Source: a phage. From it: a stretch of 64,000 nucleotides of DNA. The DNA lies in assembly GCA_019234695.1 (NCBI GenBank), contig GCA_019234695.1_3937.1. The stretch is one strand, 5' to 3'. Below are positions 2,691 to 61,867 of this stretch, piece after piece. The position numbers were made by a program, and so were the translations under genes. Within the stretch, counting starts at the first letter, position 1, and every line of letters begins with the position of its first letter. The notes beneath the pieces are model-generated. The model was not told the origin of the DNA. It searched no databases and worked only from the letters and a program-made list of their open reading frames with translations.

Positions 2691-2719
2691 TTGACAAGGG
2701 GCTTTGAAGCCCCTTAGAA
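2691..2719 (+). promoter_or_regulatory. sigma70-like promoter with stem-loop in spacer
   Basis: TTGACA-17-TAGAAT; spacer is hairpin AAGGGGC-TTTGAA-GCCCCTT; upstream of rIIB. Confidence 0.4.
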
Positions 2720-2764
2720 TATCCTCACAAAATGATTTATTAACTAACAAGAGAGAGTAATAAG

Positions 2765-3887: not shown

Positions 3888-3914
3888 AAAAGGCTGCTTC
3901 GGCGGCCTTTTTTA
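3888..3914 (+). terminator. intrinsic terminator after rIIB
   Basis: AGGCTGC-TTCG-GCGGCCT followed by TTTTTT. Confidence 0.65.
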
Positions 3915-3943
3915 TTTGTATTTTGTGCAGAGTGCTGTATAAT
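3915..3943 (+). promoter_or_regulatory. promoter-like element
   Basis: TATAAT at 3938-3943 with weak -35; shares TTGTGCAG motif with 8.1 kb repeats. Confidence 0.35.
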
Positions 3944-8005: not shown

Positions 8006-8035
8006 TTAGTGCTTCACAGCACCTATAATTAATCT

Positions 8036-8085
8036 AAAAAGGCCGCCTAACCCATTGAAAAATTTAAGGTAAGGCGGCCTTTTTC
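8036..8085. terminator. large-loop hairpin with A-tract/T-tract flanks
   Basis: AAAAAGGCCGCC ... GGCGGCCTTTTT with ~24-nt loop after macro-domain gene. Confidence 0.45.
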
Positions 8086-8228
8086 ATTTTCAATTTGTGC
8101 AGGTAGCTGTATAGGTCTGCACAGGTGTCTCAAAAAATCTCATCGCCGGATAGAAAAATCATTTTCAAAACGTGCAGACCCCGCTCAGGTCGGGCAAGAA
8201 AAATCATTTTAGAATTGTGCAGGTAGGT
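8081..8228. repeat. three direct repeats (~28 bp) sharing TCATTTT..TGTGCAG core
   Basis: copies at 8081-8106, 8155-8180, 8201-8228; first copy inside palindrome TGTGCAG..CTGCACA; C-rich tract at 8250-8282. Confidence 0.5.
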
Positions 8229-8401
8229 TTTTATGGGGAGCCAGACCAACCCCTCCCCCCCTCTTACTCCACCTCTCCCCAAAAGTCAAGAGAAAAATTT
8301 GTAGCGGGTTGAAAAATAATTCTTGATTTGTGTTCTGTTTTGTGGTAGTCGTGCGCGCACGTTCATTTCCCAACCTTACAAAAAATATTTAATAAAAACC
8401 G

Positions 8402-8430
8402 TTGACACGACAAACAAGTTTACGTACTAT
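8402..8430 (+). promoter_or_regulatory. sigma70-like early promoter
   Basis: TTGACA-17-TACTAT. Confidence 0.55.
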
Positions 8431-8479
8431 TTGCATCAGACGGGCAAGCAAGCCCACTTCCTAAACTGGAGAATCGAAA

Positions 8480-8686
8480 ATGCTTTATAGTCGTGAATTG
8501 ATGGTTACAACTAACGTTAACACAAAGGTAAAACGTTTTTACATGCAAGTATGTGGCGCATGGTCTAGAATATCAGAGGCTGACTATTGCAACTATGTAG
8601 AAACAGCTATAAACTCTAATTGCTACCTTACAAGAAATACAAGAAAGTACATAAGACAGACAGCAGTTTATTACTACGATGTCTAA
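8480..8686 (+). CDS. hypothetical small protein
   Basis: ORF track; conserved leader CTAAACTGGAGA..AAAATG; upstream TTGACA-17-TACTAT promoter. Confidence 0.5.
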   Translation: MLYSRELMVTTNVNTKVKRFYMQVCGAWSRISEADYCNYVETAINSNCYLTRNTRKYIRQTAVYYYDV

Positions 8687-8687
8687 T

Positions 8688-8777
8688 AAAGTACTTTACA
8701 AGGGGCTTAAAAGCTGATATCTTAAGCCCCAGATAAAGAGCTTTACCAAATCAACCCTTAAACTAGGAGATTCAAAA
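8688..8777 (+). repeat. cassette A copy 1 (stem-loop plus conserved leader)
   Basis: GTACTTTACAAGGGGCTTAAAAG...CTTAAGCCCCAGATAAAGAGCTTTACC...AAACTAGGAGATTCAAAAATG. Confidence 0.7.
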
Positions 8778-9161
8778 ATGGCATATCGTGCACCTAAATT
8801 CATCAACAAAGACAATTTCCGCAATGCACTGGAAAAATCACTTGATGAGAATTTTAAAGGTAACGTTATTGTTGTTCACTCGTTTAATTTTAAGTATGAT
8901 ATTAACGGGAATAAAATCAACCATTACACGGCGACAATGCTAGATGGTACTCTTTCAAGTGAAAAAGCCATTTTACATGCACTTGCTGGACGTGGTAAAA
9001 ACCTGATAAGATGCGATAAGAGACGTTATCAGGGTGGCGCATATGGTTACGATGATGCTGTTTATCATCTTGAAAATATGGGCTATCAAGTAGAAAAAGA
9101 TGGAGTGTCTCAAATAATCGGTAGTGATGGTTACGTAACTATCTTCAAAATTAACAAATAA
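8778..9161 (+). CDS. hypothetical protein
   Basis: ORF track; conserved leader AAACTAGGAGATTCAAAAATG. Confidence 0.55.
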   Translation: MAYRAPKFINKDNFRNALEKSLDENFKGNVIVVHSFNFKYDINGNKINHYTATMLDGTLSSEKAILHALAGRGKNLIRCDKRRYQGGAYGYDDAVYHLENMGYQVEKDGVSQIIGSDGYVTIFKINK

Positions 9162-9246
9162 AGTACTTTACAAGGGGCTTATAGTTCGATAAAGTAAGCC
9201 CCAGATAAAGAACTTTACCACTCAATCCTAAATTGGAGATTCAAAA
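9160..9246 (+). repeat. cassette A copy 2
   Basis: same element; stem GGGGCTTA / TAAGCCCC. Confidence 0.7.
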
Positions 9247-9480
9247 ATGGCTACTATCAAAAACGTTGTAATTCCTGTAAAAACTCGTGATGACGCTCGC
9301 ATCATGGCGAAAAAGTTAGGCGGGAAAGTGGTTGACAACGGAAAACAATCTGCTGTAAGATGGGGTGTGAGGGCTGATAAACAGTTGAAGTTAAAAAATT
9401 CACCAATAAATCTTTTTACATGTGTAAACACTATCGGAAAGACAAATGTATACACGATTTACAAGGGGCTTAAAAGTTGA
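9247..9480 (+). CDS. hypothetical small protein
   Basis: ORF track; conserved leader; 3-prime end runs into cassette A hairpin. Confidence 0.5.
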   Translation: MATIKNVVIPVKTRDDARIMAKKLGGKVVDNGKQSAVRWGVRADKQLKLKNSPINLFTCVNTIGKTNVYTIYKGLKS

Positions 9481-9536
9481 TACCTTAAGCCCCAGATAAA
9501 GAGCTTTACCACTAATCCTAAACTGGAGATTCAAAA
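9455..9536 (+). repeat. cassette A copy 3
   Basis: same element; overlaps 3-prime end of ORF 9247..9480. Confidence 0.7.
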
Positions 9537-9833: not shown

Positions 9834-10159
9834 TGACTGGTATCACTGCAATCATTGCCATTTTCGCGCTATATAAGGCATATAAAGCCTATAATCTAGC
9901 AAATAAGGCAATCACACAGCAGGTTAGCAATAACCTTGTAATGAGCTTTCTAGAGCGGTTGAGCGATGAACAATTAAAGCGGTTAGAAATGAGCTTTAGA
10001 TTCAGGGCGAGAACTTATCAAATCAGCGACATTTTCAAAGATGATTTTCAATTAGTCGATGATTATAATTCTCTGATAAATGCTTTAAATATTAGTGACT
10101 TAAAAGACTATCATACTGTAATTGTTCAAGAGTTGAGCAAACGAAAACAAAACTGTTGA
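9827..10159 (+). CDS. hypothetical protein (N-terminal TM)
   Basis: ORF track; GAGGA RBS; hydrophobic N-terminus. Confidence 0.45.
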   Translation: MLMTGITAIIAIFALYKAYKAYNLANKAITQQVSNNLVMSFLERLSDEQLKRLEMSFRFRARTYQISDIFKDDFQLVDDYNSLINALNISDLKDYHTVIVQELSKRKQNC

Positions 10160-10184
10160 CACTGGTTTTTAGATAGATTAAATT
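10156..10184 (+). promoter_or_regulatory. cassette B promoter (copy 1)
   Basis: TTGACA-17-TAAATT, then hairpin and conserved RBS. Confidence 0.55.
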
Positions 10185-10248
10185 ACACATCAACGGGGAG
10201 GCAATAAACACCCCACTAAATAAAGTCCTTAAACTAGGAGATTCTAAA

Positions 10249-10653
10249 ATGGCTATTAATAATCGTGAGTTGTCAATCTTAAAAGCACGTTTAACCGTTA
10301 ATCGAATCAATGTTATCACGTCATCAGCACCGGATGAAACATTGCACAACATTATCGGGAAGATTCAAAGTGTTATCTTAGACGTTGAAAACGTAAAAAA
10401 CTCATTGTCTGACGTTGCAGCAGGCATCACGCTAGACGGTGCACAATATGAAATGGCTGACATGTTAGGCAAATCAAAGGTAATGAATAAAGAGCTTGAT
10501 TTAAAAATGTTTCGTTTTGCTGTTAAAGTGTGGCTATCTGTTGAGTATGACGCAAATTTTGCAATCGCTGACTTTTTCGCAACATGGTTGCAACGTAATT
10601 TGACAAATCATGATTTTCGCGATGTCTGTGATGCAATTTATGCAGAACTTTAA
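10249..10653 (+). CDS. hypothetical protein
   Basis: ORF track; cassette B promoter and conserved leader upstream. Confidence 0.55.
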   Translation: MAINNRELSILKARLTVNRINVITSSAPDETLHNIIGKIQSVILDVENVKNSLSDVAAGITLDGAQYEMADMLGKSKVMNKELDLKMFRFAVKVWLSVEYDANFAIADFFATWLQRNLTNHDFRDVCDAIYAEL

Positions 10654-10661
10654 AAATTTTA

Positions 10662-10690
10662 TTGACACTGATTTTTAGATAGATTAAATT
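10662..10690 (+). promoter_or_regulatory. cassette B promoter (copy 2)
   Basis: TTGACA-17-TAAATT, then hairpin GGGGAGGGAATGACCTTCCCC and conserved RBS. Confidence 0.55.
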
Positions 10691-10754
10691 ACACATCAAC
10701 GGGGAGGGAATGACCTTCCCCACTAAGTAAAGTCCTTAAACTAGGAGATTCAAA

Positions 10755-10952
10755 ATGGCTATTATCAACGGTTTAACCATTGAAACCACGCACATCAAAG
10801 ACATTAAAGTTGGTGATATAGTTCTTTCCCACGGCGTAGAAAAAACAGTCACTGCAAAGGATATCAAAGATGATTCTTTCATGGGTAGAACTCTCTTCGG
10901 TGATTCTTATTGCTTAGGTTATCTTGCAGTTTTAAAAGTTGTCAAAAATTAA
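10755..10952 (+). CDS. hypothetical small protein
   Basis: ORF track; cassette B upstream. Confidence 0.5.
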   Translation: MAIINGLTIETTHIKDIKVGDIVLSHGVEKTVTAKDIKDDSFMGRTLFGDSYCLGYLAVLKVVKN

Positions 10953-10957
10953 CTGAT

Positions 10958-11046
10958 AAAGTACTTTACAAGGGGCTTAAAAGTTCGATAAAGTAAGCCC
11001 CAGATAAAGAGCTTTACCACTAAATCCTTAAACTAGGAGATTCAAA
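10958..11046 (+). repeat. cassette A copy 4
   Basis: same element upstream of ORF 11047. Confidence 0.7.
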
Positions 11047-11655: not shown

Positions 11656-11889
11656 ATGCTTACAACCATTTATCTCATCCTTTCTATCTGTAGCGGTCAT
11701 TCATGTGACTTTAAAGGGCTTGAAGAGTTTACAGGAAGTAAAGAAAATGCTATTCAGGTTTGCCAGATAGCAAGACAAGACTATCCCGCCAGTGATGATA
11801 TACAATGCTACTTTAAGACAGAAGATGAAGAAGGAATCTATTTCGACAGTGTTGATGGTCAATATGAAATTATCATTGAAAAAGACTAG
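11656..11889 (+). CDS. hypothetical small protein
   Basis: ORF track. Confidence 0.4.
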   Translation: MLTTIYLILSICSGHSCDFKGLEEFTGSKENAIQVCQIARQDYPASDDIQCYFKTEDEEGIYFDSVDGQYEIIIEKD

Positions 11890-11915
11890 ACAAGCCTGAT
11901 AAAAGTCTGTAAATT
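11887..11915 (+). promoter_or_regulatory. cassette B promoter (copy 3)
   Basis: TAGACA-17-TAAATT, then conserved hairpin and RBS. Confidence 0.45.
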
Positions 11916-11979
11916 ACACATCAACGGGGAGGGAATGACCTTCCCCACTAAATAAAGTCCTAAACTGGAGATTCTAAAA

Positions 11980-12352: not shown

Positions 12353-12381
12353 TTGACAATACCCCTTGACAATAGTACATT
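12353..12381 (+). promoter_or_regulatory. promoter-like element (tandem TTGACA boxes)
   Basis: TTGACA-17-TACATT; second TTGACA at 12366. Confidence 0.35.
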
Positions 12382-12449
12382 TGTTCGAGGGGGTTTATCT
12401 AAAAGGGATTCACTTAAAAGATTCTTTATAGATAAACTTAAAAAATTGC

Positions 12450-12520: not shown

Positions 12521-13051
12521 ATGAACAAGTTCAAAGCTATCAACTACATTCGCTCAAATAGTGTCATGTCTAAGCCTGTTAAGGATACCTACGAATTCCG
12601 TTGCAATGGTGAACACTTTGCTACCATCACCAAATCAAATAACGGGGCTTATTATATCCATCGTCGTAATGTTTCTACGGTTGTAGTTTCTAACTTTATG
12701 CAAGCTGTAGCGGAACTCCTCCCGCTCTTCTTAGAAAAGTATGCCGTACAGTGTGAAAGTGTTCGTGAATGCACTAAAACAGTGTTAAACGGTTATCGTA
12801 TGGCTTACGAGCGCTCTTTAAAGAATCTCAATAAATACTACAAAGCACCGGAAGGCACTTCATCCACAGCCTACGGGGTAGGGGGCTTCAATGTCAGCCT
12901 TTACGAAGTGGAAGAAATCGAGCTTTATGACCATCGCCCAAATGGTTACGCTAAGACACTGGGAGATGGGTTAATGCTGAATATCAAGAACTTAGAAAAA
13001 ACTTTAAGAGAAATTGAAAAAGATATTGACGAGACAATCAAAAGTCTGTAA
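12521..13051 (+). CDS. hypothetical protein
   Basis: ORF track; TTGCAA-17-TATAGT promoter and conserved leader upstream. Confidence 0.55.
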   Translation: MNKFKAINYIRSNSVMSKPVKDTYEFRCNGEHFATITKSNNGAYYIHRRNVSTVVVSNFMQAVAELLPLFLEKYAVQCESVRECTKTVLNGYRMAYERSLKNLNKYYKAPEGTSSTAYGVGGFNVSLYEVEEIELYDHRPNGYAKTLGDGLMLNIKNLEKTLREIEKDIDETIKSL

Positions 13052-13054
13052 ATT
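13026..13054 (+). promoter_or_regulatory. cassette B promoter (copy 4)
   Basis: TTGACG-17-TAAATT, then conserved hairpin and RBS. Confidence 0.5.
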
Positions 13055-13116
13055 ATCAATCAACGGGGAGGGAATAACCTTCCCCACTAAGTAAAGTCCT
13101 AAACTGGAGATTCAAA

Positions 13117-13380
13117 ATGGAACACGTAGAACTGACCACACTCTTACAAATCGCAACCGACAAGGAAGACGTAGCATTATTTCACCGTATAGAGAGTGAT
13201 TTGTTCAATGGTGAAATCATCAAAGAATCTTACGAAGTTGTCGGATTCAAAGATGGTAAAGCATTTGGCTTTTTTGACCTCGACAAAAGCAAAGCGGTTA
13301 CAAAGTACGATGTTCTATCTTGTGAGATTCTTACAAAATACAACGAAAAAAGGCTTGCAACATACGCCAACATGCAGTAA
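13117..13380 (+). CDS. hypothetical protein
   Basis: ORF track; cassette B upstream. Confidence 0.55.
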   Translation: MEHVELTTLLQIATDKEDVALFHRIESDLFNGEIIKESYEVVGFKDGKAFGFFDLDKSKAVTKYDVLSCEILTKYNEKRLATYANMQ

Positions 13381-13383
13381 ATT
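13355..13383 (+). promoter_or_regulatory. cassette B promoter (copy 5)
   Basis: TTGCAA-17-TAAATT, then conserved hairpin and RBS. Confidence 0.5.
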
Positions 13384-13445
13384 ACTAATCAACGGGGAGG
13401 GATGACCTCCCTACTAAATAAAACCTTAAACTAGGAGATTCTAAA

Positions 13446-21903: not shown

Positions 21904-22271
21904 TTATTTTCAGCCTCTAAATGTGCGTTTAGTCTAAAATAACCTTTGTGATTCGGAGATACATCACCAACAACAATACCTTTAACCTTATAACCTTTAC
22001 CAATTACATACTGGATATCCATAAGGAATCTTCCAAGACCAACAATATGGAACATTGGATATAATAGATTCTCAGAGTCTGGAATATTGATTTCGGGTTT
22101 GTAGGTGCATTGTTCGATTGTTGGTGTAATATCTTCTTCAGGCCATTTACTGAGTCTCCATGTCAAAGGTGTTGGGATAACATCATTAATGTTGTACCTT
22201 TCACCATTTTGCACGGAATTGATATAGGATTGTAGGAAGCAATAAAAGTCTTTTGCACTCTTAGCTTTCAT
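21900..22271 (-). CDS. hypothetical protein, paralog of N-terminal domain of the Ig-like protein
   Basis: shared pattern (FxxFxxxYIxxVxxGxRY..., MDLQYxIxxGK) with 21019..21903 N-terminus. Confidence 0.5.
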   Translation of the reverse strand: MKAKSAKDFYCFLQSYINSVQNGERYNINDVIPTPLTWRLSKWPEEDITPTIEQCTYKPEINIPDSENLLYPMFHIVGLGRFLMDIQYVIGKGYKVKGIVVGDVSPNHKGYFRLNAHLEAENK

Positions 22272-22318
22272 TAAATATCCTTATAAATAGTTAAAGGGGC
22301 ATCAGCCCCTATTCACAC

Positions 22319-22909
22319 TTAAGCTTTGGTCTTAAGTAGGTTCTTAAGTTTTTTAAGATTCATACTCTCATCAAACTTAAAACCAAATCCATTGACATAA
22401 TCAATGAACTCGGATTTCTTACTGAGTGACAATGCGTAACTCATATCAAAGTTCTTACTTGTTTCTGCGTCTGGACTAGAGTTCACATCAAATGAAATTT
22501 CTGTAGGCTCTTGCTTACTTTTTCTCATATTATCAACCAACAAACATGTATAGTTTGCTGGATAGAAATTTACACTACCATCAACGTAGCTGTACTTATT
22601 ATTATGGATAAGGTTGGAAAATACCTTAAGGAATGTTTCTGAGTCGTGGCAAACAAGTTTGAATTGGCTGCTCTCTCCAAGCGCAACTAATGAGTACGGG
22701 CTTTCACTATCAAAGTCATAATTTGGATTCGATGACGTTACTGTTACACGCATCAAGTTATTAGCAATAGTCTTCTGTTTAAAAGAATTTGGAACATAGT
22801 GAAGACCTCTATCACACTGATTAACTAATTCTTTCAATAGGTCATTTGCATATGGTGAGTTAATTGATACAGAGCCATCACTATTGTAATTAAAACTTAC
22901 TGTTAACAT
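22319..22909 (-). CDS. hypothetical protein
   Basis: ORF track. Confidence 0.5.
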   Translation of the reverse strand: MLTVSFNYNSDGSVSINSPYANDLLKELVNQCDRGLHYVPNSFKQKTIANNLMRVTVTSSNPNYDFDSESPYSLVALGESSQFKLVCHDSETFLKVFSNLIHNNKYSYVDGSVNFYPANYTCLLVDNMRKSKQEPTEISFDVNSSPDAETSKNFDMSYALSLSKKSEFIDYVNGFGFKFDESMNLKKLKNLLKTKA

Positions 22910-23136
22910 TTTTCAGTTCTCCTGCGATTTATAATTTTGCTGCAATAGAGAAACGAAGTAAACTCACTGGAAGAAACCATTAAGTGTTGTTCACTAGATT
23001 GAGCCATTGCCCTGAAATACATTCCAGTCAAAGCATCATAGTGACTATTCTTTCCAATTGAGGTTATATAGCCATGACTCTTTGCAGTTTGATATAAATC
23101 TATAATATCTGCGATTTCTAATTGGGAACTACACAT
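22903..23136 (-). CDS. hypothetical small protein
   Basis: ORF track. Confidence 0.4.
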   Translation of the reverse strand: MCSSQLEIADIIDLYQTAKSHGYITSIGKNSHYDALTGMYFRAMAQSSEQHLMVSSSEFTSFLYCSKIINRRRTEKC

Positions 23137-23300
23137 AGATAATCCTCTTGTCTTCTGTAATTTTGAAAGAACAGGTACAGACCAATTTCAGAGGATGAAT
23201 AGTAGATTGACTCTACCCTTTTTGATTCCTTACAGTGATTGGTATTCTTACCTTTCTTCGGTTTATTTGATTTTCTCATTAAGTCTCCTTTGTAGAACAA
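23118..23300 (-). CDS. hypothetical small basic protein
   Basis: ORF track; first gene of leftward operon. Confidence 0.3.
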   Translation of the reverse strand: MFYKGDLMRKSNKPKKGKNTNHCKESKRVESIYYSSSEIGLYLFFQNYRRQEDYLCVVPN

Positions 23301-23528
23301 GGCAGACCTACAGCTTTAAGTAAGATGGTACAGTAATCCATACAACAAGTCAAGAACTATTGCAAGTTAAAAAAGTTGTTGACAAAGTACTTGACAAGGT
23401 GTAGGCTTATAAATACTTAGAAGATAACTTAAAAGGTTCCTCTAAAAAGGCTATTTAAACAGATATCTTTCTGGATATCTATCTTTTATCTTAAAAGCCT
23501 TTTAAGAGGTCTTATAAGAGGCATACCA

Positions 23529-23900
23529 ATGAAAAACAGAACAAACAAAGGCCAGTTTAAAAAAGGCCAGTCTGGAAACCCATCTGGAAGACCAAAAGGC
23601 TCTCGTAACAAAAGCTCACTTGTAAAAGCTCAACTGACCATTGATAATTCTGCTGAGTTTGCTGCAAAGTTGTTTGAAGCAATTGTTACAAGGGATGCTG
23701 CTAAGCTTGCAGAGTTCGGGTTAAACACAGACGACGTAACCATCAAGAGCATGATTGAGGTCGGTAAAACTATCATGACTCACTCAGCAGGTGAGATGAA
23801 AGCCATTGCAGCAGACACTAAGAAGACTCCTGATAACGGTGGTCAGTCTCAGACAGATAACAAACCAACGTTCTCTGCTGTTGCAACCCTCAAAAAATAA
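23529..23900 (+). CDS. hypothetical protein with GNPSGRPKG motif
   Basis: ORF track; AAGAGG RBS; N-terminal KGQSGNPSGRPKGSRNK basic motif. Confidence 0.5.
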   Translation: MKNRTNKGQFKKGQSGNPSGRPKGSRNKSSLVKAQLTIDNSAEFAAKLFEAIVTRDAAKLAEFGLNTDDVTIKSMIEVGKTIMTHSAGEMKAIAADTKKTPDNGGQSQTDNKPTFSAVATLKK

Positions 23901-23912
23901 TTTTAAAAGATG

Positions 23913-23942
23913 TTGACAGACTCTACAAAGTTGCTCTAAAGT
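23913..23942 (+). promoter_or_regulatory. promoter embedded in inverted repeat, upstream of Ro60-like gene
   Basis: TTGACA-18-TAAAGT; flanked by inverted repeat TGACAGACT / AGTCTGTCA. Confidence 0.4.
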
Positions 23943-23981
23943 CTGTCACATCAAACAACAAATGAGAGAAGAGAGTAAAAT

Positions 23982-25397
23982 ATGAGCGAATTATTTAAAC
24001 ATGCGAACCTTCATGCAGGTCGAACTGAAAATGGTGCTGTAAACCATACTTCATCAATGTCTGCTCTTGTAGACTTTTACAAAGCTGCTGGTTCAAGCCG
24101 TAGCAACGTAGAAATCTTACCAGACCTGTTCTACAAAGCTTTGCGTGAGGATGTTGATGTTGCAGTTCGTATTTTGCTTCATATGCGAGATGTACGAGAA
24201 GGTATGGGTGAGCGTAAAGCCTTCAGAACTGTTTTGCTTCAAGCAATTGAAGATAAAGTTTTAGAGCCTACACAGGTTCTTCGCATTATGGATAAGATTG
24301 CAGAACTTGGTCGTTTTGATGACTTCAAAATCTTCGTGGGTACTTGTTTCGAGACAGATGCCTTCAAACATTTAGAAGCAGCATTACTAGACCCTGCAAC
24401 AGCAGGTTTGGCGGCTAAGTGGTTACCACGAGTCAAACCACGTCATAAGCAGTTTGTAAAACGTTTCTGCAAGTTTGCCAACTTGAGTGAGAAAGAGTAC
24501 CGCACACTGTTGTCTGCACTATCTGATACAGTTGAGCAAAAAATCTCTGCTAATGAGTTTGGTAAGATTGACTACAGTAAGATTCCTTCACTTGCTGCTG
24601 CACGTTACCAAAAACTGTTTAACCGTAAAGATGGAGAGCGTTACAAAGCTTACATCGAGTCCTTATCAAAAGGTGAGACTAAGATTAGCGCTGGTGCTGT
24701 TTACCCATACGATGTGATTAAATCCGTCAAGCATGGTAATGCAGATGTTGCTAATGAGCAGTGGAAAGCACTACCAAACTGGATGGCAGAAGGTGAAAAC
24801 ATCTTGTGTATGTCTGATGTATCAAGTTCAATGTCTTGGGTGAATTTTGGCTCCATTACTGCTCTGGATATTGGTGTATCACTTGCCTTGTATGTAGCAG
24901 AACGCAATACAGGTTGCTTTAAGAATGAGTTGATGGTTTATTCAACAAACCCTCACTTCATCGAACTGAGTGGTGATTTACGAAACCGTCATCGTCAGGT
25001 GATGCGACACGTTGAATATGGCTCAACTAACTTACAAGCAGCTTTTGACCGCATTCTTGAGACAGGCAAAAGAAACAACTTGACTCAGAAAGATATGCCA
25101 AGTAAGCTTATCATCTTCTCCGATATGGAGTTTAATCAGGTTGATGGGGCTAACGGTCGTACAAACTTTGAAGCAATTCAGAGTAAGTACAAAAAAGCTG
25201 GATATGAGATGCCACAACTGGTATTCTGGTACTTAGCAAACCGTAATGGTACTTGCGAAGTATCTGTTAAGGATAACGGTGTAGCAATGGTATCAGGGTT
25301 CTCTCCAGCCACTTTAAAAGCTCTGCTTGGTGGTGAGAAGTTTGACCCAATCAGTGTAATGCTCAAAGCAGTAATGATTGACCGTTATATCTGGTAA
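23982..25397 (+). CDS. Ro60-like protein (helical N-terminal domain plus vWA/MIDAS domain)
   Basis: 471 aa; SDVSSSM (DxSxS MIDAS), LIIFSDMEFN and GFSPATLKAL align by eye with human Ro60 vWA segments DVSASM, FIVFTDNETF, GFDTGAL (recalled). Confidence 0.5.
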   Translation: MSELFKHANLHAGRTENGAVNHTSSMSALVDFYKAAGSSRSNVEILPDLFYKALREDVDVAVRILLHMRDVREGMGERKAFRTVLLQAIEDKVLEPTQVLRIMDKIAELGRFDDFKIFVGTCFETDAFKHLEAALLDPATAGLAAKWLPRVKPRHKQFVKRFCKFANLSEKEYRTLLSALSDTVEQKISANEFGKIDYSKIPSLAAARYQKLFNRKDGERYKAYIESLSKGETKISAGAVYPYDVIKSVKHGNADVANEQWKALPNWMAEGENILCMSDVSSSMSWVNFGSITALDIGVSLALYVAERNTGCFKNELMVYSTNPHFIELSGDLRNRHRQVMRHVEYGSTNLQAAFDRILETGKRNNLTQKDMPSKLIIFSDMEFNQVDGANGRTNFEAIQSKYKKAGYEMPQLVFWYLANRNGTCEVSVKDNGVAMVSGFSPATLKALLGGEKFDPISVMLKAVMIDRYIW

Positions 25398-25415
25398 AAA
25401 GTTTTAAAAAGGGTA

Positions 25416-25444
25416 TTGACAATGTGTTTAATACCCTTTAATAT
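25416..25444 (+). promoter_or_regulatory. sigma70-like promoter upstream of tRNA cluster
   Basis: TTGACA-17-TAATAT; -35 flanked by inverted repeat GGGTATT / AATACCC. Confidence 0.55.
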
Positions 25445-25506
25445 GTTCTACATAGAAACGAAATGAGAGCTTTTCTAAGATACTGAAAAATATTTTAAAA
25501 AAGTTC

Positions 25507-25536
25507 TTGACAACCACTAAAAAATAATGTTAAAGT
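25507..25536 (+). promoter_or_regulatory. second promoter upstream of tRNA cluster
   Basis: TTGACA-18-TAAAGT with inverted repeat AACCACT / AGTGGTT; ~25 nt upstream of first tRNA. Confidence 0.4.
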
Positions 25537-25560
25537 GGTTACATAGAGTTTGAAAAGTTT

Positions 25561-25637
25561 ATCTCTGTTTAGCTCAGCTTGGTAGAGCGTTCCGTTTGGG
25601 GCGGTAAGGCCGGAGGTTCAAGTCCTCCAACAGAGAC
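25561..25637 (+). tRNA. tRNA-Pro (anticodon TGG)
   Basis: manual cloverleaf; acceptor CTCTGTT/AACAGAG, T-arm GGAGG-TTCAAGT-CCTCC, CCA encoded. Confidence 0.65.
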
Positions 25638-25644
25638 CAAATTA

Positions 25645-25722
25645 ATGTTCCAGTGGACAAAATGGTAAAGTCACCACTCTTTCAAAGTGGATATTTGAGG
25701 GTTCAAATCCCTTCTGGAACGC
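25645..25722 (+). tRNA. tRNA-Glu (TTC)
   Basis: manual fold; anticodon arm CCACT-CTTTCAA-AGTGG; T-loop TTCAAAT. Confidence 0.7.
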
Positions 25723-25728
25723 CAGTTT

Positions 25729-25802
25729 TGACAGAAGACCAATTACAGCAAACTTAATCTTATTCATCTGAAGGTAAATCGGACAAAGAAGAGATTTGGT
25801 CT
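25729..25802 (+). ncRNA. structured hairpin RNA E1 (Y RNA-like family)
   Basis: 5-prime ACAGAAGACCAATTACAGCAA pairs with 3-prime TTGGTCTGG; between tRNA-Glu and tRNA-Met. Confidence 0.45.
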
Positions 25803-25813
25803 GGTCATTAAGA

Positions 25814-25890
25814 ATTGCGGGTATAGAGAAAGGGCGTCTCACATGTCTCATTAGCATGGTATCGGCAGGTTCGACTCCTGCACCCGCCTC
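25814..25890 (+). tRNA. tRNA-Met (CAT), atypical
   Basis: anticodon arm CATGT-CTCATTA-GCATG; 1-72 mismatch and 3-nt connector before D-stem. Confidence 0.5.
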
Positions 25891-25895
25891 CAAAT

Positions 25896-25960
25896 TTACA
25901 GAAGACCGTTTACAGCAATATTTATTAAATTTTTAGCGGAAAAATTGAAAGATACGGTCT
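25896..25960 (+). ncRNA. structured hairpin RNA E2 (Y RNA-like family)
   Basis: 5-prime ACAGAAGACCGTTTACAGCAA pairs with 3-prime ACGGTCTGG; compensatory change relative to E1/E3. Confidence 0.45.
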
Positions 25961-25973
25961 GGTAATACTAAAC

Positions 25974-26050
25974 ATGGTTAGGAAGCACATAAGGTATGTG
26001 CGGTCGCCTGTTAAGCGAATGGCACAGGGTTCGAATCCCTGACTAACCGC
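25974..26050 (+). tRNA. tRNA-Asn (GTT)
   Basis: anticodon loop CTGTTAA; D-stem GCAC/GTGC; T-arm CAGGG-TTCGAAT-CCCTG. Confidence 0.7.
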
Positions 26051-26119
26051 CAAATTTAGGAGAGAAGCGATTGCTCACCGATTTGTAAGGTTCAAGTCCT
26101 TAGCCTGAATAGAAATCAA

Positions 26120-26207
26120 ATGTGTCGTTATCCCGTAGATGGTAGCGGTGGGGACTGTAAATCCCTTGTCATTGAGACTCGGTAGGTTCGACTCCTACAC
26201 GGCACAC
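26120..26207 (+). tRNA. tRNA-Tyr (GTA), long variable arm
   Basis: 88 nt; anticodon loop CTGTAAA; T-arm GTAGG-TTCGACT-CCTAC. Confidence 0.7.
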
Positions 26208-26213
26208 CAAATA

Positions 26214-26291
26214 AAGGTTATGTAGTTTAATCTGGTTAAAATACTCCCCTGTCACGGGAGATGATGAGGGTTCAAATCCCTTCATAACCGC
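26214..26291 (+). tRNA. tRNA-Asp (GTC)
   Basis: perfect acceptor GGTTATG/CATAACC; anticodon arm CTCCC-CTGTCAC-GGGAG. Confidence 0.8.
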
Positions 26292-26352
26292 CAATTTTGA
26301 GAGGGCTATTTAGCCCCTCCCTTAAAGAGTTCTTACGAGTATTCTTTAAAGG

Positions 26353-26426
26353 AGCAGAAGACCAAATACAGCAAGCATGTATGAAATTTCAAACCAATTC
26401 AATTTTGAAAATTTAAAACTTGGTCT
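26353..26426 (+). ncRNA. structured hairpin RNA E3 (Y RNA-like family)
   Basis: 5-prime CAGAAGACCAAATACAGCAA pairs with 3-prime TTGGTCTGG. Confidence 0.45.
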
Positions 26427-26438
26427 GGCTCAACAAAT

Positions 26439-26571
26439 TTACAGAAGACCGTTTACAGCAAAACTTAAACAATCTATTTCTCCGGTAAAGAAAAGGCGAG
26501 GGTTCGATTCCTTCACTCGGCAGATGTCGAGTTGGTGTAATGGTAGCACTTAAGATGATAAACAACGGTCT
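26439..26571 (+). ncRNA. candidate Y RNA (YrlA-like) with permuted tRNA-like module
   Basis: terminal stem AGACCGTT / AACGGTCT; internal order T-arm (GAGGG-TTCGATT-CCTTC), ACTCGGC, 4-nt loop, GTCGAGT, D-arm (GTGTAATGGTAGCAC). Confidence 0.5.
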
Positions 26572-26573
26572 GG

Positions 26574-26716
26574 TAATTATCTTTGTAGATAAGTTATTAA
26601 GCTTACCTGTGAGTATGCGACCACAAAGGGTGAATGGGTAAATTCTAGATTTAAACCCAAAAAGGCACATCGCTACAGACCTTAAGCAAGTCTGGGTAGC
26701 TTATCTACAAAGATAA
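26574..26716 (+). ncRNA. long hairpin element with 18-bp terminal inverted repeat
   Basis: ATTATCTTTGTAGATAAG (26574-26591) is the exact reverse complement of CTTATCTACAAAGATAAT (26699-26716); ~107 nt interior with sub-hairpins. Confidence 0.4.
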
Positions 26717-26720
26717 TTTA

Positions 26721-26796
26721 ATGGAAGTGTAGCAGAATGGTGATGCGGCAGACTTTTAATCTGACAGGCGATGGGTTCGAATCCCTCCACTTCTAC
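26721..26796 (+). tRNA. tRNA-Lys (TTT), weak T-stem
   Basis: anticodon loop CTTTTAA; acceptor GGAAGTG/CACTTCT; T-stem has two mismatches. Confidence 0.55.
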
Positions 26797-26800
26797 CAAT

Positions 26801-26877
26801 ATGGTTCAGTCGCAGATAAGGTAATGCAAGGGTCTCATAAGCCCTATGAATGTGGGTTCGATTCCCATCTGAACCTC
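26801..26877 (+). tRNA. tRNA-Met (CAT)
   Basis: perfect acceptor GGTTCAG/CTGAACC; anticodon arm AGGGT-CTCATAA-GCCCT. Confidence 0.7.
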
Positions 26878-26878
26878 C

Positions 26879-26954
26879 AAGCTGGTATAGTTAAGAAGGT
26901 TATAACACTCCCCTGATAAGGGAACATCGGTGGTTCGATTCCACCTACCAGTAC
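26879..26954 (+). tRNA. tRNA-Ile (GAT)
   Basis: anticodon loop CTGATAA; T-arm GGTGG-TTCGATT-CCACC. Confidence 0.75.
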
Positions 26955-26969
26955 CAATTTCAATAAAGT

Positions 26970-26998
26970 TGTTGACATTGAGATGTGACTACTTTATA
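26970..26998 (+). promoter_or_regulatory. internal sigma70-like promoter within tRNA cluster
   Basis: TTGACA-17-TATAGT after tRNA-Ile; precedes ~200 nt tRNA-free structured segment. Confidence 0.55.
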
Positions 26999-27200
26999 GT
27001 AACCTTAGTTTTCGTTGCGTAGCGTCTATTTTGCAAATTTAAAATAAATGCAAACGACAATGTTTTTCTGGCAGTAGCTTGATAGGCTAAACACCAGTGA
27101 GGTCTTCCAATCCCTCATCAAAGAATTTGGCGTACTCGCCCACGGTATGATTAATAAGGTGGGCATCTTTAAGGGCTTTCTAAGAGAGTCTTTAAAGATA

Positions 27201-27277
27201 ATGCACCCTTAGTTCAATTGGATAGAGCAACGGTCTTCTAAATCGTTAGTTACAGGTTCGAATCCTGTAGGGTGTAC
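27201..27277 (+). tRNA. tRNA-Arg (TCT)
   Basis: anticodon arm ACGGT-CTTCTAA-ATCGT; T-arm ACAGG-TTCGAAT-CCTGT. Confidence 0.8.
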
Positions 27278-27419
27278 CAAATAGTTAGCAGATTACTTAG
27301 ACGGCCTTAGCGGGTCTTCCTGTAGGGAGGTGGTCTGTATCTCATGTTTTCCAGAACATGTAAATAATCTGAGAAGGAGCTTGACAGTGTTGAGATAACA
27401 GGGTAAGCTTCGAATTATA

Positions 27420-27502
27420 ATATGGGACGATGTTAAGACTCTAAGGCATGAGCAACGGCCTCCAAAACCGTTTCAAAGGGGTTCAACTCCTCCGTCCCAT
27501 GC
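27420..27502 (+). tRNA. tRNA-Trp (CCA)-like, atypical
   Basis: perfect acceptor ATGGGAC/GTCCCAT; anticodon loop CTCCAAA; ~7 extra nt between acceptor and D-arm. Confidence 0.45.
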
Positions 27503-27515
27503 CAAAGTCTTATTA

Positions 27516-27603
27516 GGGGTAGGTAGCGGCTAATGGTAGCCAAACTGTCTTGAAAACAGTTGCCACTGTAGAGATACGGTGAGGGTTCGACTCCTTTACT
27601 TAC
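27516..27603 (+). tRNA. tRNA-Ser (TGA), long variable arm
   Basis: anticodon arm ACTGT-CTTGAAA-ACAGT; 20-nt variable arm; CCA not encoded. Confidence 0.75.
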
Positions 27604-27757
27604 CGCCTAATAAGATTTACTCCGTCCATGCTTGTTCGCATTGTCGGTTTATCCCTCGTGTATTGTCGTACACTGTCAAAGCACCTAGTAGGTGTCACGG
27701 AGAAGAGATAATATCAAGCTCTCCAAAGGTTCTAGTCACCGGATTAAACAAGACTAT

Positions 27758-27780
27758 GCAAAGACCTATTTAGGTCTTTT
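27758..27780 (+). terminator. terminator-like hairpin inside tRNA cluster
   Basis: AGACCTA-TT-TAGGTCT followed by TTTTT. Confidence 0.45.
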
Positions 27781-27859
27781 TAGAGGGCTTCTAAGGTTAT
27801 TAGTCGCTTGTTGTGGAACCTTGTTGCTTAGGTTCTTAGAAGTTCTCTAAAAAGATTTA

Positions 27860-27937
27860 ATGGGAGATTGACGGTAATTGGTAAACCTACCATCCTTAGA
27901 AGTTGGTGTTTGAGGGTTCGAATCCCTTGTCTCCTAC
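27860..27937 (+). tRNA. tRNA with anticodon TAG (Leu by anticodon), short variable arm
   Basis: acceptor GGGAGAT/GTCTCCT; anticodon loop CTTAGAA; discriminator A; 5-nt variable region. Confidence 0.5.
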
Positions 27938-27944
27938 CAAATTA

Positions 27945-28020
27945 ATGCAGGTGTAGCAAAATGGTTATGCGGCTGACTCTTAATCAGTAAGACGATGGGT
28001 TCAATTCCCTCCACCTGTAC
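27945..28020 (+). tRNA. tRNA-Lys (CTT), weak T-stem
   Basis: paralog of 26721..26796; anticodon arm GCTGA-CTCTTAA-TCAGT. Confidence 0.55.
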
Positions 28021-58430: not shown

Positions 58431-58544
58431 AATGACCTCAAAGTTATATTAAATTTTGTATTACATTGAGTATAAAAATAAGCTATAACACCTGACTTGT
58501 CAACAGATTTTATAGCTTATTTGGCAGATTTTTTATAAGGCTAC

Positions 58545-58930
58545 TGCCATCCTTCCATACCTTACTTTACCACACCTAACCATACCTAACCAAACTATAC
58601 CATACAATACCTTGTTAAAAGACCCTTTTAAAGACCTTTTAAAAAGGTAAGTCTCATTTTAATGTAGCTGAGACTAACTACCCATACATTACCTTACCAT
58701 ACCAGACCTCACCCTACCTTAACTTACCTTACTCTATCCTACCAAACACCACTTAAAAACCCTCTTAGAAGACTCTTAAGTGATGTAATCGGATTTTTAT
58801 GTAGCTCCGATTAACTACCCATACCAAGCCTAACCTGACCGCACCAAACCTTACAACACCACACCATACCTGACCATACCAAACCTCATTAAAAGACCCT
58901 CTTAAAGACCTTTTAAAAAGGAGCCTCCGA
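58545..58930. repeat. G-depleted (C/A/T-rich) tracts with conserved-loop hairpins, region 1
   Basis: plus strand nearly lacks G over long CCATACC-type runs; hairpins at ~58660-58687 and ~58787-58814 share loop TTTWATGTAGC. Confidence 0.6.
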
Positions 58931-61674: not shown

Positions 61675-61675
61675 T

Positions 61676-61867
61676 TTATTCCTCTGAGTGATACCAAGTA
61701 TTGCAAGCATTACATGCGTAAAGTTCTAAGTCATTTTTATCTGGTTTATGGAAACAGTTTGCTCCGCAGTGGCAACGAAACGGCTTTCCACCAACTGTCA
61801 GGATGAAGGATTGAACCTTTCCATCTGGAGTTCGTATAGCATTTTTATACTTATCTTCTTTGTTCAT
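61676..61867 (-). CDS. small zinc-ribbon protein
   Basis: CHCGANC ... CNACNTW. Confidence 0.4.
   Translation of the reverse strand: MNKEDKYKNAIRTPDGKVQSFILTVGGKPFRCHCGANCFHKPDKNDLELYACNACNTWYHSEE

What the first reader, a model, noticed from the sequence alone, without database searches (positions are those of the whole stretch)
23913..25545. Promoters whose -35 box sits inside an inverted repeat
At 23911-23950 (TGACAGACT..AGTCTGTCA), 25410-25440 (GGGTATT..AATACCC) and 25505-25540 (AACCACT..AGTGGTT) a TTGACA hexamer lies within or next to a 7-9 bp inverted repeat that spans the promoter. The rIIB promoter at 2691 likewise has a hairpin as its spacer. This recurring architecture may modulate promoter use, for instance through DNA structure or binding of a dimeric regulator.
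Basis: seen in the sequence. Interest (0 to 1): 0.35.

Follow-up and report, generated by a model that had tools for sequence, protein, structure and literature searches.

The report
Early promoters embedded in RNA stem-loops
In this Felix O1-like phage, several host-type early promoters are built inside hairpin-forming inverted repeats, an arrangement already known from T4-like phages as promoter/stem-loop cassettes; the hairpin most likely acts in the RNA arriving from the upstream gene and does not switch the promoter itself.

Summary
The window is a Felixounavirus genome, 97-98% identical to VpaE1 and Felix O1. TTGACA boxes at 23913, 25416, 25507 and 2691 lie in or next to perfect inverted repeats of 9, 10, 7 and 8 bp. 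Repeats that long occur in 0.28%, 0.03%, 3.7% and 1.2% of 45-nt genomic windows. P1, P2 and the rIIB site fold far better than shuffles; P3 alone does not.

The architecture recurs at seven further sites in the window. The arms differ at every promoter, so a shared dimeric regulator is unlikely.

Across about 60 related loci the stems are kept by G·U wobbles on the sense strand. Variant pair types are 18 G·U against 7 A·C, and five pairs show compensatory changes. In Citrobacter phage Michonne, P1 stays stable only as sense-strand RNA. The right arm lies upstream of the promoter's own start, so the hairpin can only exist in read-through RNA from the upstream gene.

Best reading: composite promoter/stem-loop cassettes equivalent to the PeSLs of T4-like phages, here in Ounavirinae. 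Indel breakpoints between relatives fall at such cassettes. Termination or 3'-end protection is inferred, not shown. This is a new member of a known kind, of modest interest.

The parts
23886..23912 (+). AT-rich UP-element-like tract upstream of P1 (AAAAAATAATTTTAAAAGATG). The motif AAAAA..TTTTAAAA is shared with P2, P3 and 12353.
   Evidence: 80% A+T against 61% for the window
23913..23942 (+). P1 promoter: -35 TTGACA 23913-18, 18-nt spacer, -10 TAAAGT 23937-42. It precedes the 471-aa DUF2828/DUF7788 gene (23982-25397).
   Evidence: both boxes are conserved in all relatives
23909..23952 (+). P1 stem-loop: left arm 23909-23925, right arm 23937-23952, 16 pairs with one bulge. It starts 9 nt after the stop codon of the DUF5681 gene (23898-23900).
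   Evidence: RNA dG -16.2, z -4.2. 94% of cells are paired in 14 distinct sequences. Pair 23910/23951 occurs as A-U, G·U and G-C.
25408..25439 (+). P2 stem-loop AAAGGGUAUU/AAUACCCUUU enclosing the -35. It starts 11 nt after the stop of the 471-aa gene (25395-97) and is followed by the U-rich tract UUUAAUAUGUU.
   Evidence: flagged terminator-like; dG -13.5, z -3.6. The only variants are U·G wobbles.
25416..25444 (+). P2 promoter: TTGACA 25416-21, 17-nt spacer, TAATAT 25439-44. The -10 coincides with the U-rich tail of the hairpin. First of two tandem promoters ahead of the tRNA cluster.
   Evidence: the block 25400-25465 is invariant between Felixounavirus and Mooglevirus
25507..25536 (+). P3 promoter: TTGACA 25507-12, 18-nt spacer with a TG motif before the -10, TAAAGT 25531-36. 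It lies 27 nt upstream of tRNA-Pro (25563).
25512..25540 (+). P3 inverted repeat AACCACU/AGUGGUU, 7 bp with a 15-nt loop. This is the weakest of the set.
   Evidence: z -1.5. C->U wobble variants occur in relatives. The repeat is broken in the Mooglevirus clade, where a different spacer hairpin ACACUA/UAGUGU appears.
2691..2720 (+). rIIB promoter (TTGACA 2691-96, TAGAAT 2715-20) with hairpin AAGGGGCUU/AAGCCCCUU (2696-2715) as its spacer, 11 nt after the rIIA stop.
   Evidence: z -2.9. A 60%-identity relative (L065) has a different hairpin at the same junction.
8687..8747 (+). Class-A cassette copy 1: TAAAGTACTTTACA-N-GGGGCTTA-(loop holding the -10, TAnnnT)-TAAGCCCC-AGATAAAGAGCTTTAC.
9160..9219 (+). 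Class-A cassette copy 2. The whole promoter lies inside an interrupted hairpin of about 19 bp.
   Evidence: (dG -20.5, z -5.5)
9451..9510 (+). Class-A cassette copy 3. It overlaps the 3' end of ORF 9247-9480, whose stop codon sits in the loop.
   Evidence: a recurrent indel breakpoint at 9455-9458
10957..11018 (+). Class-A cassette copy 4.
12353..12392 (+). Tandem TTGACA boxes (12353, 12366) with stem CCCCUUGA/UCGAGGGG (12362-12392).
   Evidence: z -3.1; a compensated C-G to A-U change
26965..27000 (+). Promoter TTGACA 26972 / TATAGT 26995-27000 (Felix O1 'P45'), flanked by AAAGTTGT/ACTACTTT. The hairpin is weak.
   Evidence: z -1.3, not significant
58478..58520 (-). Minus-strand example: stem AUAAGCUAUAA/UUAUAGCUUAU encloses the -35 (TTGACA 58503-58498) and is followed by UUUUUAUAC, which doubles as the -10 region.
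   Evidence: (z -3.6)

Best explanation
These are composite promoter/stem-loop cassettes of the kind described as PeSLs (promoter-early stem-loops) in T4-like phages, here found in a Felix O1-like phage.

Each cassette holds a near-consensus sigma-70 early promoter with an AT-rich upstream tract. Laid over it is a stem-loop selected as a structure of the sense-strand RNA.

The 3' arm ends at or before the promoter's own start site. So the hairpin forms only in transcripts that read in from the gene just upstream; it begins 9-11 nt after that gene's stop codon. There it most likely defines or protects the 3' end of the upstream message.

- Where the U-rich -10 follows the stem (P2 and 58503 on the minus strand), it probably causes partial termination.
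- Elsewhere (P1, P3, the GGGGCTTA family), it probably serves as an exonuclease barrier or processing site.

The overlap with the promoter looks like space-saving in intergenic regions of about 80 nt. The spacer is free sequence, and the boxes themselves are used as stem bases.

Shown here: the repeats, their non-randomness, their recurrence, conservation of the promoter boxes, and conservation of pairing through G·U and compensatory changes. Inferred: that the RNA hairpin terminates or stabilises, and that the promoters fire where predicted.
For: - Non-random hairpins occur at P1, P2, rIIB, 9167, 12353 and 58503(-), with z from -2.9 to -5.5 and inverted-repeat background rates of 0.03-1.2%.
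- Promoter function is under selection. In 115 distinct copies of the cassette family, the -10 keeps T1 in 115/115, A2 in 115/115 and T6 in 114/115, while the three middle bases vary freely. The -35 and -10 of P1-P3 are invariant or conservatively changed in relatives of 82-99% identity.
- Structure is under selection on the sense strand. Over 79 stem pairs, variant types are G·U 18 against A·C 7 (p=0.022). Types seen in >=2 distinct sequences are 11 against 2 (p=0.011). Cells are 222 against 27. Five pairs show more than one Watson-Crick type.
- Non-stem columns show no transition bias, 62 against 69.
- Pair 23910/23951 occurs as A-U, G·U and G-C. The G-C form also appears in metagenome locus L102, in an otherwise Felixounavirus-like P1 sequence.
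- Michonne P1 folds at -18.9 kcal/mol, z -3.7, as sense RNA. As antisense RNA it gives z -0.8, and as DNA z -1.2 and -1.45.
- In the family, outer-stem pair 10/64 is G-C in 92 sequences and U-A in 13.
- Arms are unique to each promoter.
- The hairpins start 9-11 nt after upstream stop codons.
- Promoters with no co-directional gene close upstream (8402, 23379) have no hairpin, z>0.
- The same anatomy, including the positional classes, is described for PeSLs, where one stem-loop reduced reporter expression like the rrnB T1 terminator (PMC2839356; PMC4122927).
- Indel breakpoints between the window and relatives fall at cassettes.
Against: - There are no transcript data for any Felixounavirus in the searchable literature. 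Start sites and 3' ends are predictions.
- P1, P3 and the GGGGCTTA family have no U-tract after the stem, and their loops are 11-17 nt. They do not look like this phage's canonical terminators, such as GGCTGCTTCGGCGGCCTTTTTT at 3890. Efficient intrinsic termination is therefore doubtful for them.
- The strand asymmetry is only moderate (p about 0.01-0.02), and it counts variant types, not phylogenetic events.
- Most Felixounavirus P1 copies carry a C·A mismatch at 23923/23939. That position is a G·U on the minus strand, so in the window P1 folds better as minus-strand RNA (-21.8 against -16.2).
- P3 and 26972 are not significant alone, and P3's repeat is broken in Mooglevirus.
- Erwinia phage Coenus shows no significant hairpin at the equivalent promoters.
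- Promoter 60416(-) also has no hairpin (z +0.9), although the co-directional ORF 60574-61710 ends about 150 nt upstream of it. Its context was not examined further.
Confidence: 0.55

Rival explanations
1. DNA-level control of the promoter. Under negative supercoiling the inverted repeat extrudes as a cruciform or hairpin. This hides or exposes the -35/-10 and so tunes promoter use during infection.
For: The repeats are perfect in DNA and span the boxes. In the window, both DNA strands of P1 and P2 fold significantly better than shuffles, with z from -3.2 to -4.2. In the window, P1 is at least as stable on the minus strand.
Against: Loops of 8-17 nt make extrusion unfavourable (own knowledge). 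Relatives accumulate G·T pairs, which would be A·C on the other strand. In Michonne P1, both DNA strands fall to z -1.2 and -1.45 while the sense RNA keeps z -3.7. Hairpins were absent at the two promoters with no co-directional gene close upstream (8402, 23379), which fits an RNA role and not a promoter-intrinsic one.
Confidence: 0.1
2. Each inverted repeat is an operator for a dimeric host or phage DNA-binding protein that represses or activates the overlapping promoter.
For: Dyad symmetry across a promoter is the classical operator layout. P2 and its surroundings (25400-25465) are completely invariant across genera, more than pairing alone would require.
Against: The arms are different at every promoter: TGACAGACT, GGGTATT, AACCACT, AAGGGGCTT, AAGCTATAA. 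None recurs elsewhere as an inverted-repeat pair, so many different regulators would be needed. Half-site spacings of 11-17 bp vary. Arm sequences drift while pairing is kept.
Confidence: 0.05
3. The hairpins are RNA processing sites, for RNase III or similar, that cut polycistronic early transcripts into monocistronic units, as in the T7 early region. They are not terminators.
For: The family cassettes form interrupted helices of about 19 bp with internal loops. P1 forms 16 pairs with a bulge. No U-tract follows most stems.
Against: P2, P3 and rIIB have only 7-10 bp, short for RNase III. No cleavage data exist. This overlaps with the best explanation, being a variant of the RNA-level reading.
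Confidence: 0.15
4. The repeats have no function of their own. They are chance, or by-products of recombination between similar promoter cassettes. This reading applies mainly to P3 and 26972.
For: P3 (z -1.5) and 26972 (z -1.3) are within the background range. P3's repeat is broken in Mooglevirus. Cassettes are recombination junctions.
Against: The joint improbability of repeats of 9, 10 and 8 bp at promoters. Compensatory and wobble-preserving changes. A different hairpin at the same rIIA/rIIB junction in a 60%-identity relative.
Confidence: 0.1

Closest known systems
PeSLs (promoter-early stem-loops) of T4-like phages RB49/phi1, PST/T4 and nt-1/KVP40 (Arbiol et al. 2010, PMC2839356; Comeau et al. 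2014, PMC4122927)
   Same: A near-consensus sigma-70 promoter, an AT-rich tract upstream of the -35, and a stem-loop lying between the boxes, overlapping either box, or just upstream or downstream. The cassette sits between the upstream stop codon and the downstream Shine-Dalgarno sequence. Stem types Gn-loop-Cn (compare GGGGCTT..AAGCCCC) and A3-4G3-loop-C3T3-4 (compare AAAGGG..CCCTTT of P2). Association with arrays of small ORFs, and indel breakpoints at cassettes.
   Different: The host phage is an Ounavirinae member, not a T4-like phage. P1-P3 themselves sit at conserved, syntenic positions next to the tRNA cluster, not in a variable region. Most stems here have long loops that contain the -10, with no U-tract. 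Terminator activity and mini-circle formation have not been tested here.
Intrinsic (Rho-independent) terminators overlapping a downstream promoter
   Same: P2 and 58503(-) are a hairpin just after a stop codon followed by a U-rich run that doubles as the -10.
   Different: P1, P3, rIIB and the GGGGCTTA family lack a U-tract. Their stems are AU-rich or their loops are 11-17 nt, unlike this genome's canonical terminators.
Intergenic RNase III hairpins of the T7 early region
   Same: Interrupted hairpins between consecutive early genes in read-through transcripts. Their likely effect is on the stability of the upstream message.
   Different: The T7 sites do not coincide with promoters. No cleavage evidence exists here, and several stems are too short.
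Hairpin-form early promoters of phage N4 (virion RNA polymerase)
   Same: A promoter coinciding with an inverted repeat; in N4 a DNA structure is needed for promoter use.
   Different: The N4 promoters are 5-7 bp stems with 3-nt loops, read by a phage RNA polymerase on extruded single-stranded DNA (own knowledge). Here the boxes are sigma-70 consensus, the loops are long, and the substitution pattern points to RNA.

Membership tests
PeSL (promoter-early stem-loop) cassette | Near-consensus sigma-70 -35 and -10 boxes with a spacer of about 17 nt | tested here: met
   TTGACA at all four sites, with spacers of 17-18 nt and -10 boxes TAAAGT, TAATAT and TAGAAT. In the cassette family the -10 keeps T1, A2 and T6 in 114-115 of 115 copies.
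PeSL (promoter-early stem-loop) cassette | [quoted passage not shown] | tested here: met
   80-84% A+T in the 25 nt upstream of P1 and P3, against 61% for the window. The motif AAAAA..TTTTAAAA is shared. P2 fell below the 76% A+T filter used.
PeSL (promoter-early stem-loop) cassette | A stable stem-loop between the boxes, overlapping a box, or immediately flanking the promoter | tested here: met
   rIIB: in the spacer. P1 and P3: from the -35 to the -10. P2 and 58503(-): enclosing the -35. Class-B cassettes: just after +1. P1, P2 and rIIB are significant, P3 is not.
PeSL (promoter-early stem-loop) cassette | Intergenic position between the upstream stop codon and the downstream Shine-Dalgarno sequence and start codon | tested here: met
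   Hairpins start 9-11 nt after the stops at 23900, 25397 and 2685. An SD sequence and ATG, or a tRNA, follow within 30-45 nt.
PeSL (promoter-early stem-loop) cassette | The stem-loop terminates or attenuates transcription coming from upstream | not testable with these tools
   Only P2 and 58503(-) have a U-rich tail. No transcript data were found.
PeSL (promoter-early stem-loop) cassette | Cassettes flank variable small ORFs and mark recombination and indel junctions between close relatives | tested here: inconclusive
   Met for the 8.6-13.5 kb array: breakpoints at 8686-8701, 9455-9458, 10230-10262, 10956, 11958-79, 13043-13120 and 13377. Also met at 26972. P1-P3 are syntenic in all relatives. 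Intergenic breakpoints are partly expected whenever whole genes are gained or lost.
PeSL (promoter-early stem-loop) cassette | Described so far only in T4-like myoviruses | tested here: not met
   The window is a Felixounavirus (Ounavirinae). This is a matter of distribution, not a mechanistic criterion.
Intrinsic terminator | A GC-rich stem with a short loop, followed directly by a U-tract | tested here: not met
   P1 is followed by AAACAACA, P3 by ACAUAGAG, and the family by AGAUAAAG. Only P2 is partly met, with UUUAAUAUGUU.
Operator of a dimeric regulator | The same half-site recurring at co-regulated promoters | tested here: not met
   The arms of P1, P2 and P3 occur only at their own site. 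Only AAGGGGCTT is shared, between rIIB and the cassette family.
Known RNA families (Rfam 15) | A match to a curated covariance model | tested here: not met
   Only tRNAs and sub-threshold chance matches in 22000-28000.

The most novel reading that the evidence does not exclude
Promoter-embedded stem-loops would be a general solution, arrived at independently outside the T4-like phages. A sense-RNA hairpin stops, releases or trims transcripts from the upstream gene exactly on top of the next promoter. This insulates each small early gene as its own expression unit, and the same conserved cassette serves as the homology patch for swapping genes between Ounavirinae genomes.
Probability: 0.3. Interest if true: 0.45.

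Novelty: new member of a known kind. Interest (0 to 1): 0.3.

Why it matters
Felix O1-like phages are widely used for Salmonella and E. coli typing and biocontrol, yet their transcription map is essentially unknown. The genome paper listed five putative promoters and left open how transcription passes the terminators (PMC3185647).

Recognising a PeSL-type cassette system gives three things:
- a concrete promoter and 3'-end map to test;
- an explanation for the compact intergenic regions of about 80 nt;
- a likely mechanism for gene shuffling in the early region.

It also extends PeSL-like cassettes beyond the T4-like phages. This refines known biology and is not a new principle.

Tried and rejected
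- **Shared operator.** I searched every arm with 0-1 mismatch across the window and found no recurrence. Rejected.
- **Rfam.** Nothing matched the hairpins.
- **Literature.** I looked for Felix O1 promoter hairpins and for a Felixounavirus transcriptome and found nothing. The wV8 paper mentions no promoters at all. One search was a poorly chosen search and yielded nothing useful.
- **Distant relatives.**
  - L031, L105 and similar loci (about 40% identity) have unrelated flanks and no sigma-70-type boxes, so they are uninformative.
  - Erwinia phage Coenus has TTGACA promoters at the equivalent places but no significant hairpins.
- **Minus-strand test.** I tried to use element 58503 as an independent test of the sense-strand rule. 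Relatives are nearly invariant there, with one G·U and one A·C variant, so it is uninformative.
- **Shuffle control on P1.** The count of structure pairs shuffle control was not significant, because the variation is one-sided.
- **Majority-rule polarisation.** Counting single-base changes in stems gave only 10 against 4. I replaced it with pair-level classification.
- **Mini-ORF after P2.** A 7-codon ORF (ATG at 25463) is not conserved in Mooglevirus. Dropped.
Full report
**Identity of the window.** The region 23400-26400 is 97-98% identical to Escherichia phage VpaE1, Salmonella phage Felix O1 and about 250 other Felixounavirus genomes. It is about 82% identical to Mooglevirus, represented by Citrobacter phage Michonne. 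The finding lies where the plus-strand early genes meet a 26-gene tRNA cluster. The order is:
- the DUF5681 gene, 23529-23900;
- P1;
- a 471-aa DUF2828/DUF7788 gene, 23982-25397;
- P2;
- P3;
- tRNA-Pro at 25563.

**The observation.**
- P1: TTGACA 23913, 18-nt spacer, TAAAGT. It carries TGACAGACT/AGTCTGTCA.
- P2: TTGACA 25416, 17-nt spacer, TAATAT. It sits in AAAGGGTATT/AATACCCTTT.
- P3: TTGACA 25507, 18-nt spacer, TAAAGT. It abuts AACCACT/AGTGGTT.
- rIIB promoter: TTGACA 2691, 18-nt spacer, TAGAAT. The hairpin AAGGGGCTT/AAGCCCCTT forms its spacer.

**Is it more than chance?** Perfect inverted repeats of >=7, >=8, >=9 and >=10 bp occur in 3.7%, 1.2%, 0.28% and 0.03% of 45-nt genomic windows. 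Folding z-scores against dinucleotide shuffles are -4.2 for P1, -3.6 for P2, -2.9 for rIIB and -1.5 for P3. Against low-GC genomic windows, P1 lies at the 0.8th percentile, P2 at the 2.5th and P3 at the 25th. P3 is unremarkable by itself.

**The architecture recurs.** A scan of all TTGACA-type sites found more cases.
- A repeated cassette occurs at 8687, 9160, 9451 and 10957. Its form is TAAAGTACTTTACA-N-GGGGCTTA-loop-TAAGCCCC-AGATAAAGAGCTTTAC (z -5.5). The loop contains the -10.
- 12353 has tandem TTGACA boxes within CCCCUUGA/UCGAGGGG (z -3.1).
- 26972 has a weak hairpin.
- 58503 on the minus strand has AAGCTATAA/TTATAGCTT around the -35, followed by T5 (z -3.6).
- A second cassette class, at 10156, 10662, 11887, 13026 and about 13355, places a GGGGAGGG/CCTTCCCC hairpin roughly 10 nt after the predicted start instead.
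- The promoters at 8402 and 23379 have no co-directional gene close upstream and show no hairpin. Promoter 60416(-) also shows none, although the co-directional ORF 60574-61710 ends about 150 nt upstream of it. All three have z>0.

**Are the promoters real?** There are no transcript data, but the conservation has the signature of sigma-70 recognition. In 115 distinct copies of the cassette family, the -10 is T (115), A (115), N, N, N, T (114). In P1-P3 the -35 is invariant, and the -10 changes only at inner positions: TAAAGT to TAGAGT or TATAGT.

**Is the pairing selected, and at what level?** I collected about 60 related loci from IMG/VR, metagenomes and GenBank and aligned each element.

P1 forms 16 pairs, with 94% of cells paired in 14 distinct sequences.
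- Variants at 23920, 23921, 23923 and 23925 are G·U or U·G.
- Pair 23910/23951 exists as A-U, G·U and G-C. The G-C form is found in Mooglevirus and also in metagenome locus L102, whose P1 sequence is otherwise Felixounavirus-like.

P2 varies only by two U·G wobbles. P3 shows three wobble variants, but is broken in Mooglevirus, where a different spacer hairpin appears.

In the cassette family:
- inner pair 26/48 is C-G in 68 sequences, U·G in 45 and U-A in 1;
- outer pair 10/64 is G-C in 92 and U-A in 13;
- pair 11/63 is U·G in 107, U-A in 6 and C-G in 2.

Over all 79 stem pairs:
- variant types are G·U 18 against A·C 7 (p=0.022);
- types seen in at least two distinct sequences are 11 against 2 (p=0.011);
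- cells are 222 against 27.

Non-stem columns show no transition bias, 62 against 69.

Michonne P1 is the clearest single case. As sense RNA it folds at -18.9 kcal/mol, z -3.7. As antisense RNA it gives z -0.8, and the two DNA strands give z -1.2 and -1.45.

A relative with only 60% rIIB identity (L065) has a different hairpin, AAGUGGUC/GGCCACUU, over the -10 at the same rIIA/rIIB junction (z -2.4).

There are counter-points.
- Most Felixounavirus P1 copies carry C·A at 23923/23939, so in the window the minus-strand RNA fold is better (-21.8 against -16.2).
- Within the window, the other elements fold about equally on both strands.
- The statistics count variant types, not independent events.

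**Mechanism.** The 3' arm of each hairpin ends at or before the predicted +1. The structure therefore cannot be in the promoter's own transcript. It can exist only in RNA that reads through from the upstream gene, whose stop codon lies 9-11 nt before the stem. Together with the sense-strand wobble pattern, this points to an RNA element acting on the upstream message.

For P2 and 58503(-), the U-rich -10 follows the stem directly, so partial intrinsic termination is plausible; the scan flags P2 as terminator-like. P1, P3, rIIB and the cassette family lack a U-tract and have 11-17-nt loops, unlike the phage's canonical terminators. For these, a 3'-exonuclease barrier or a processing site is more likely. 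This step is inference.

A shared dimeric regulator is unlikely because every promoter has its own arms. A cruciform is disfavoured by the long loops and by the G·T/A·C asymmetry, but it is not excluded.

**Comparison with what is known.** The anatomy matches the PeSLs of T4-like phages. Those have a sigma-70 consensus promoter, an AT-rich upstream tract and a stem-loop in any of five positions relative to the boxes. They lie between a stop codon and the next Shine-Dalgarno sequence. Their stems are of type Gn-loop-Cn or A3-4G3-loop-C3T3-4. In one reporter test the stem-loop acted as a terminator, and the cassettes serve as recombination points for gene shuffling (PMC2839356; PMC4122927).

Indel breakpoints between the window and its relatives in the 8-14.5 kb array of small ORFs fall at cassettes here too: 8686-8701, 9455-9458, 10230-10262, 10956, 11958-79, 13043-13120 and 13377. 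Downstream of promoter 26972, the sequence switches to unrelated DNA in Felix O1, L016 and L019 right after the -10.

The Felix O1 genome paper lists five putative promoters, including the 26972 homologue 'P45', and mentions no hairpins. No paper in the searchable library links PeSLs to Felix O1-like phages.

**Verdict.** The interpretation should move from 'structure or regulator that modulates the promoter' to 'PeSL-type composite cassette whose stem-loop works in upstream read-through RNA'. This is a new member of a known kind, in Ounavirinae instead of T4-like phages. It is of modest interest, and the functional step is still untested.

Noticed in passing
window 10156-10250, 10662-10755, 11887-11979, 13026-13116, ~13355-13445: A second repeated cassette. 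The promoter is TTGACA-N17-TAAATT, and its -10 often begins with the upstream gene's stop codon. About 10 nt after the predicted start comes a 5'-UTR hairpin, GGGGAGGG-loop-CCTTCCCC, and then AACTAGGAGATTCAAAATG.
   Followed up: partly
window 25400-25465: The P2 block, including about 20 nt downstream of the -10, is identical between Felixounavirus and Mooglevirus, while the flanking coding sequence is only about 82% identical. That is more constraint than a promoter plus a stem would require.
   Followed up: partly
window 26995-27030; L001 5531-5620: Immediately after the -10 of promoter 26972, the sequence switches to unrelated DNA in Felix O1, L016 and L019. This is a recombination or insertion junction placed exactly at a promoter.
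   Followed up: partly
window 23982-25397: The 471-aa DUF2828 + DUF7788 protein is annotated elsewhere as 'RNA-binding protein' or 'vWFA protein'. It sits directly upstream of the tRNA cluster and two tandem promoters. I did not examine whether a small structured RNA partner is encoded nearby.
   Followed up: no
window 3924-3941, 8096-8113, 8216-8233: The motif TGTGCAG-N7-TATA lies just downstream of two canonical terminators. It could be a phage-specific promoter type. The count is not above chance: 3 found against 1.6 expected.
   Followed up: partly
window 58560-58740 (minus strand): A run of short periodic repeats (GGTAWGG / TACCT, periods 5, 10 and 15) lies in the ~450-nt gap upstream of promoter 58503. 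The purpose is unknown; it may be iteron-like.
   Followed up: no
window 8245-8285: A C/T-rich tract (CCAACCCCTCCCCCCCTCTTACTCCACCTCTCCCC) lies inside the ~770-nt non-coding region 8006-8777, which also holds a terminator and the first early promoter (8402).
   Followed up: no
window 9451-9510: One cassette copy overlaps the 3' end of ORF 9247-9480, whose stop codon lies in the hairpin loop. Relatives carry insertions of 89-695 bp exactly at 9457/9458.
   Followed up: partly
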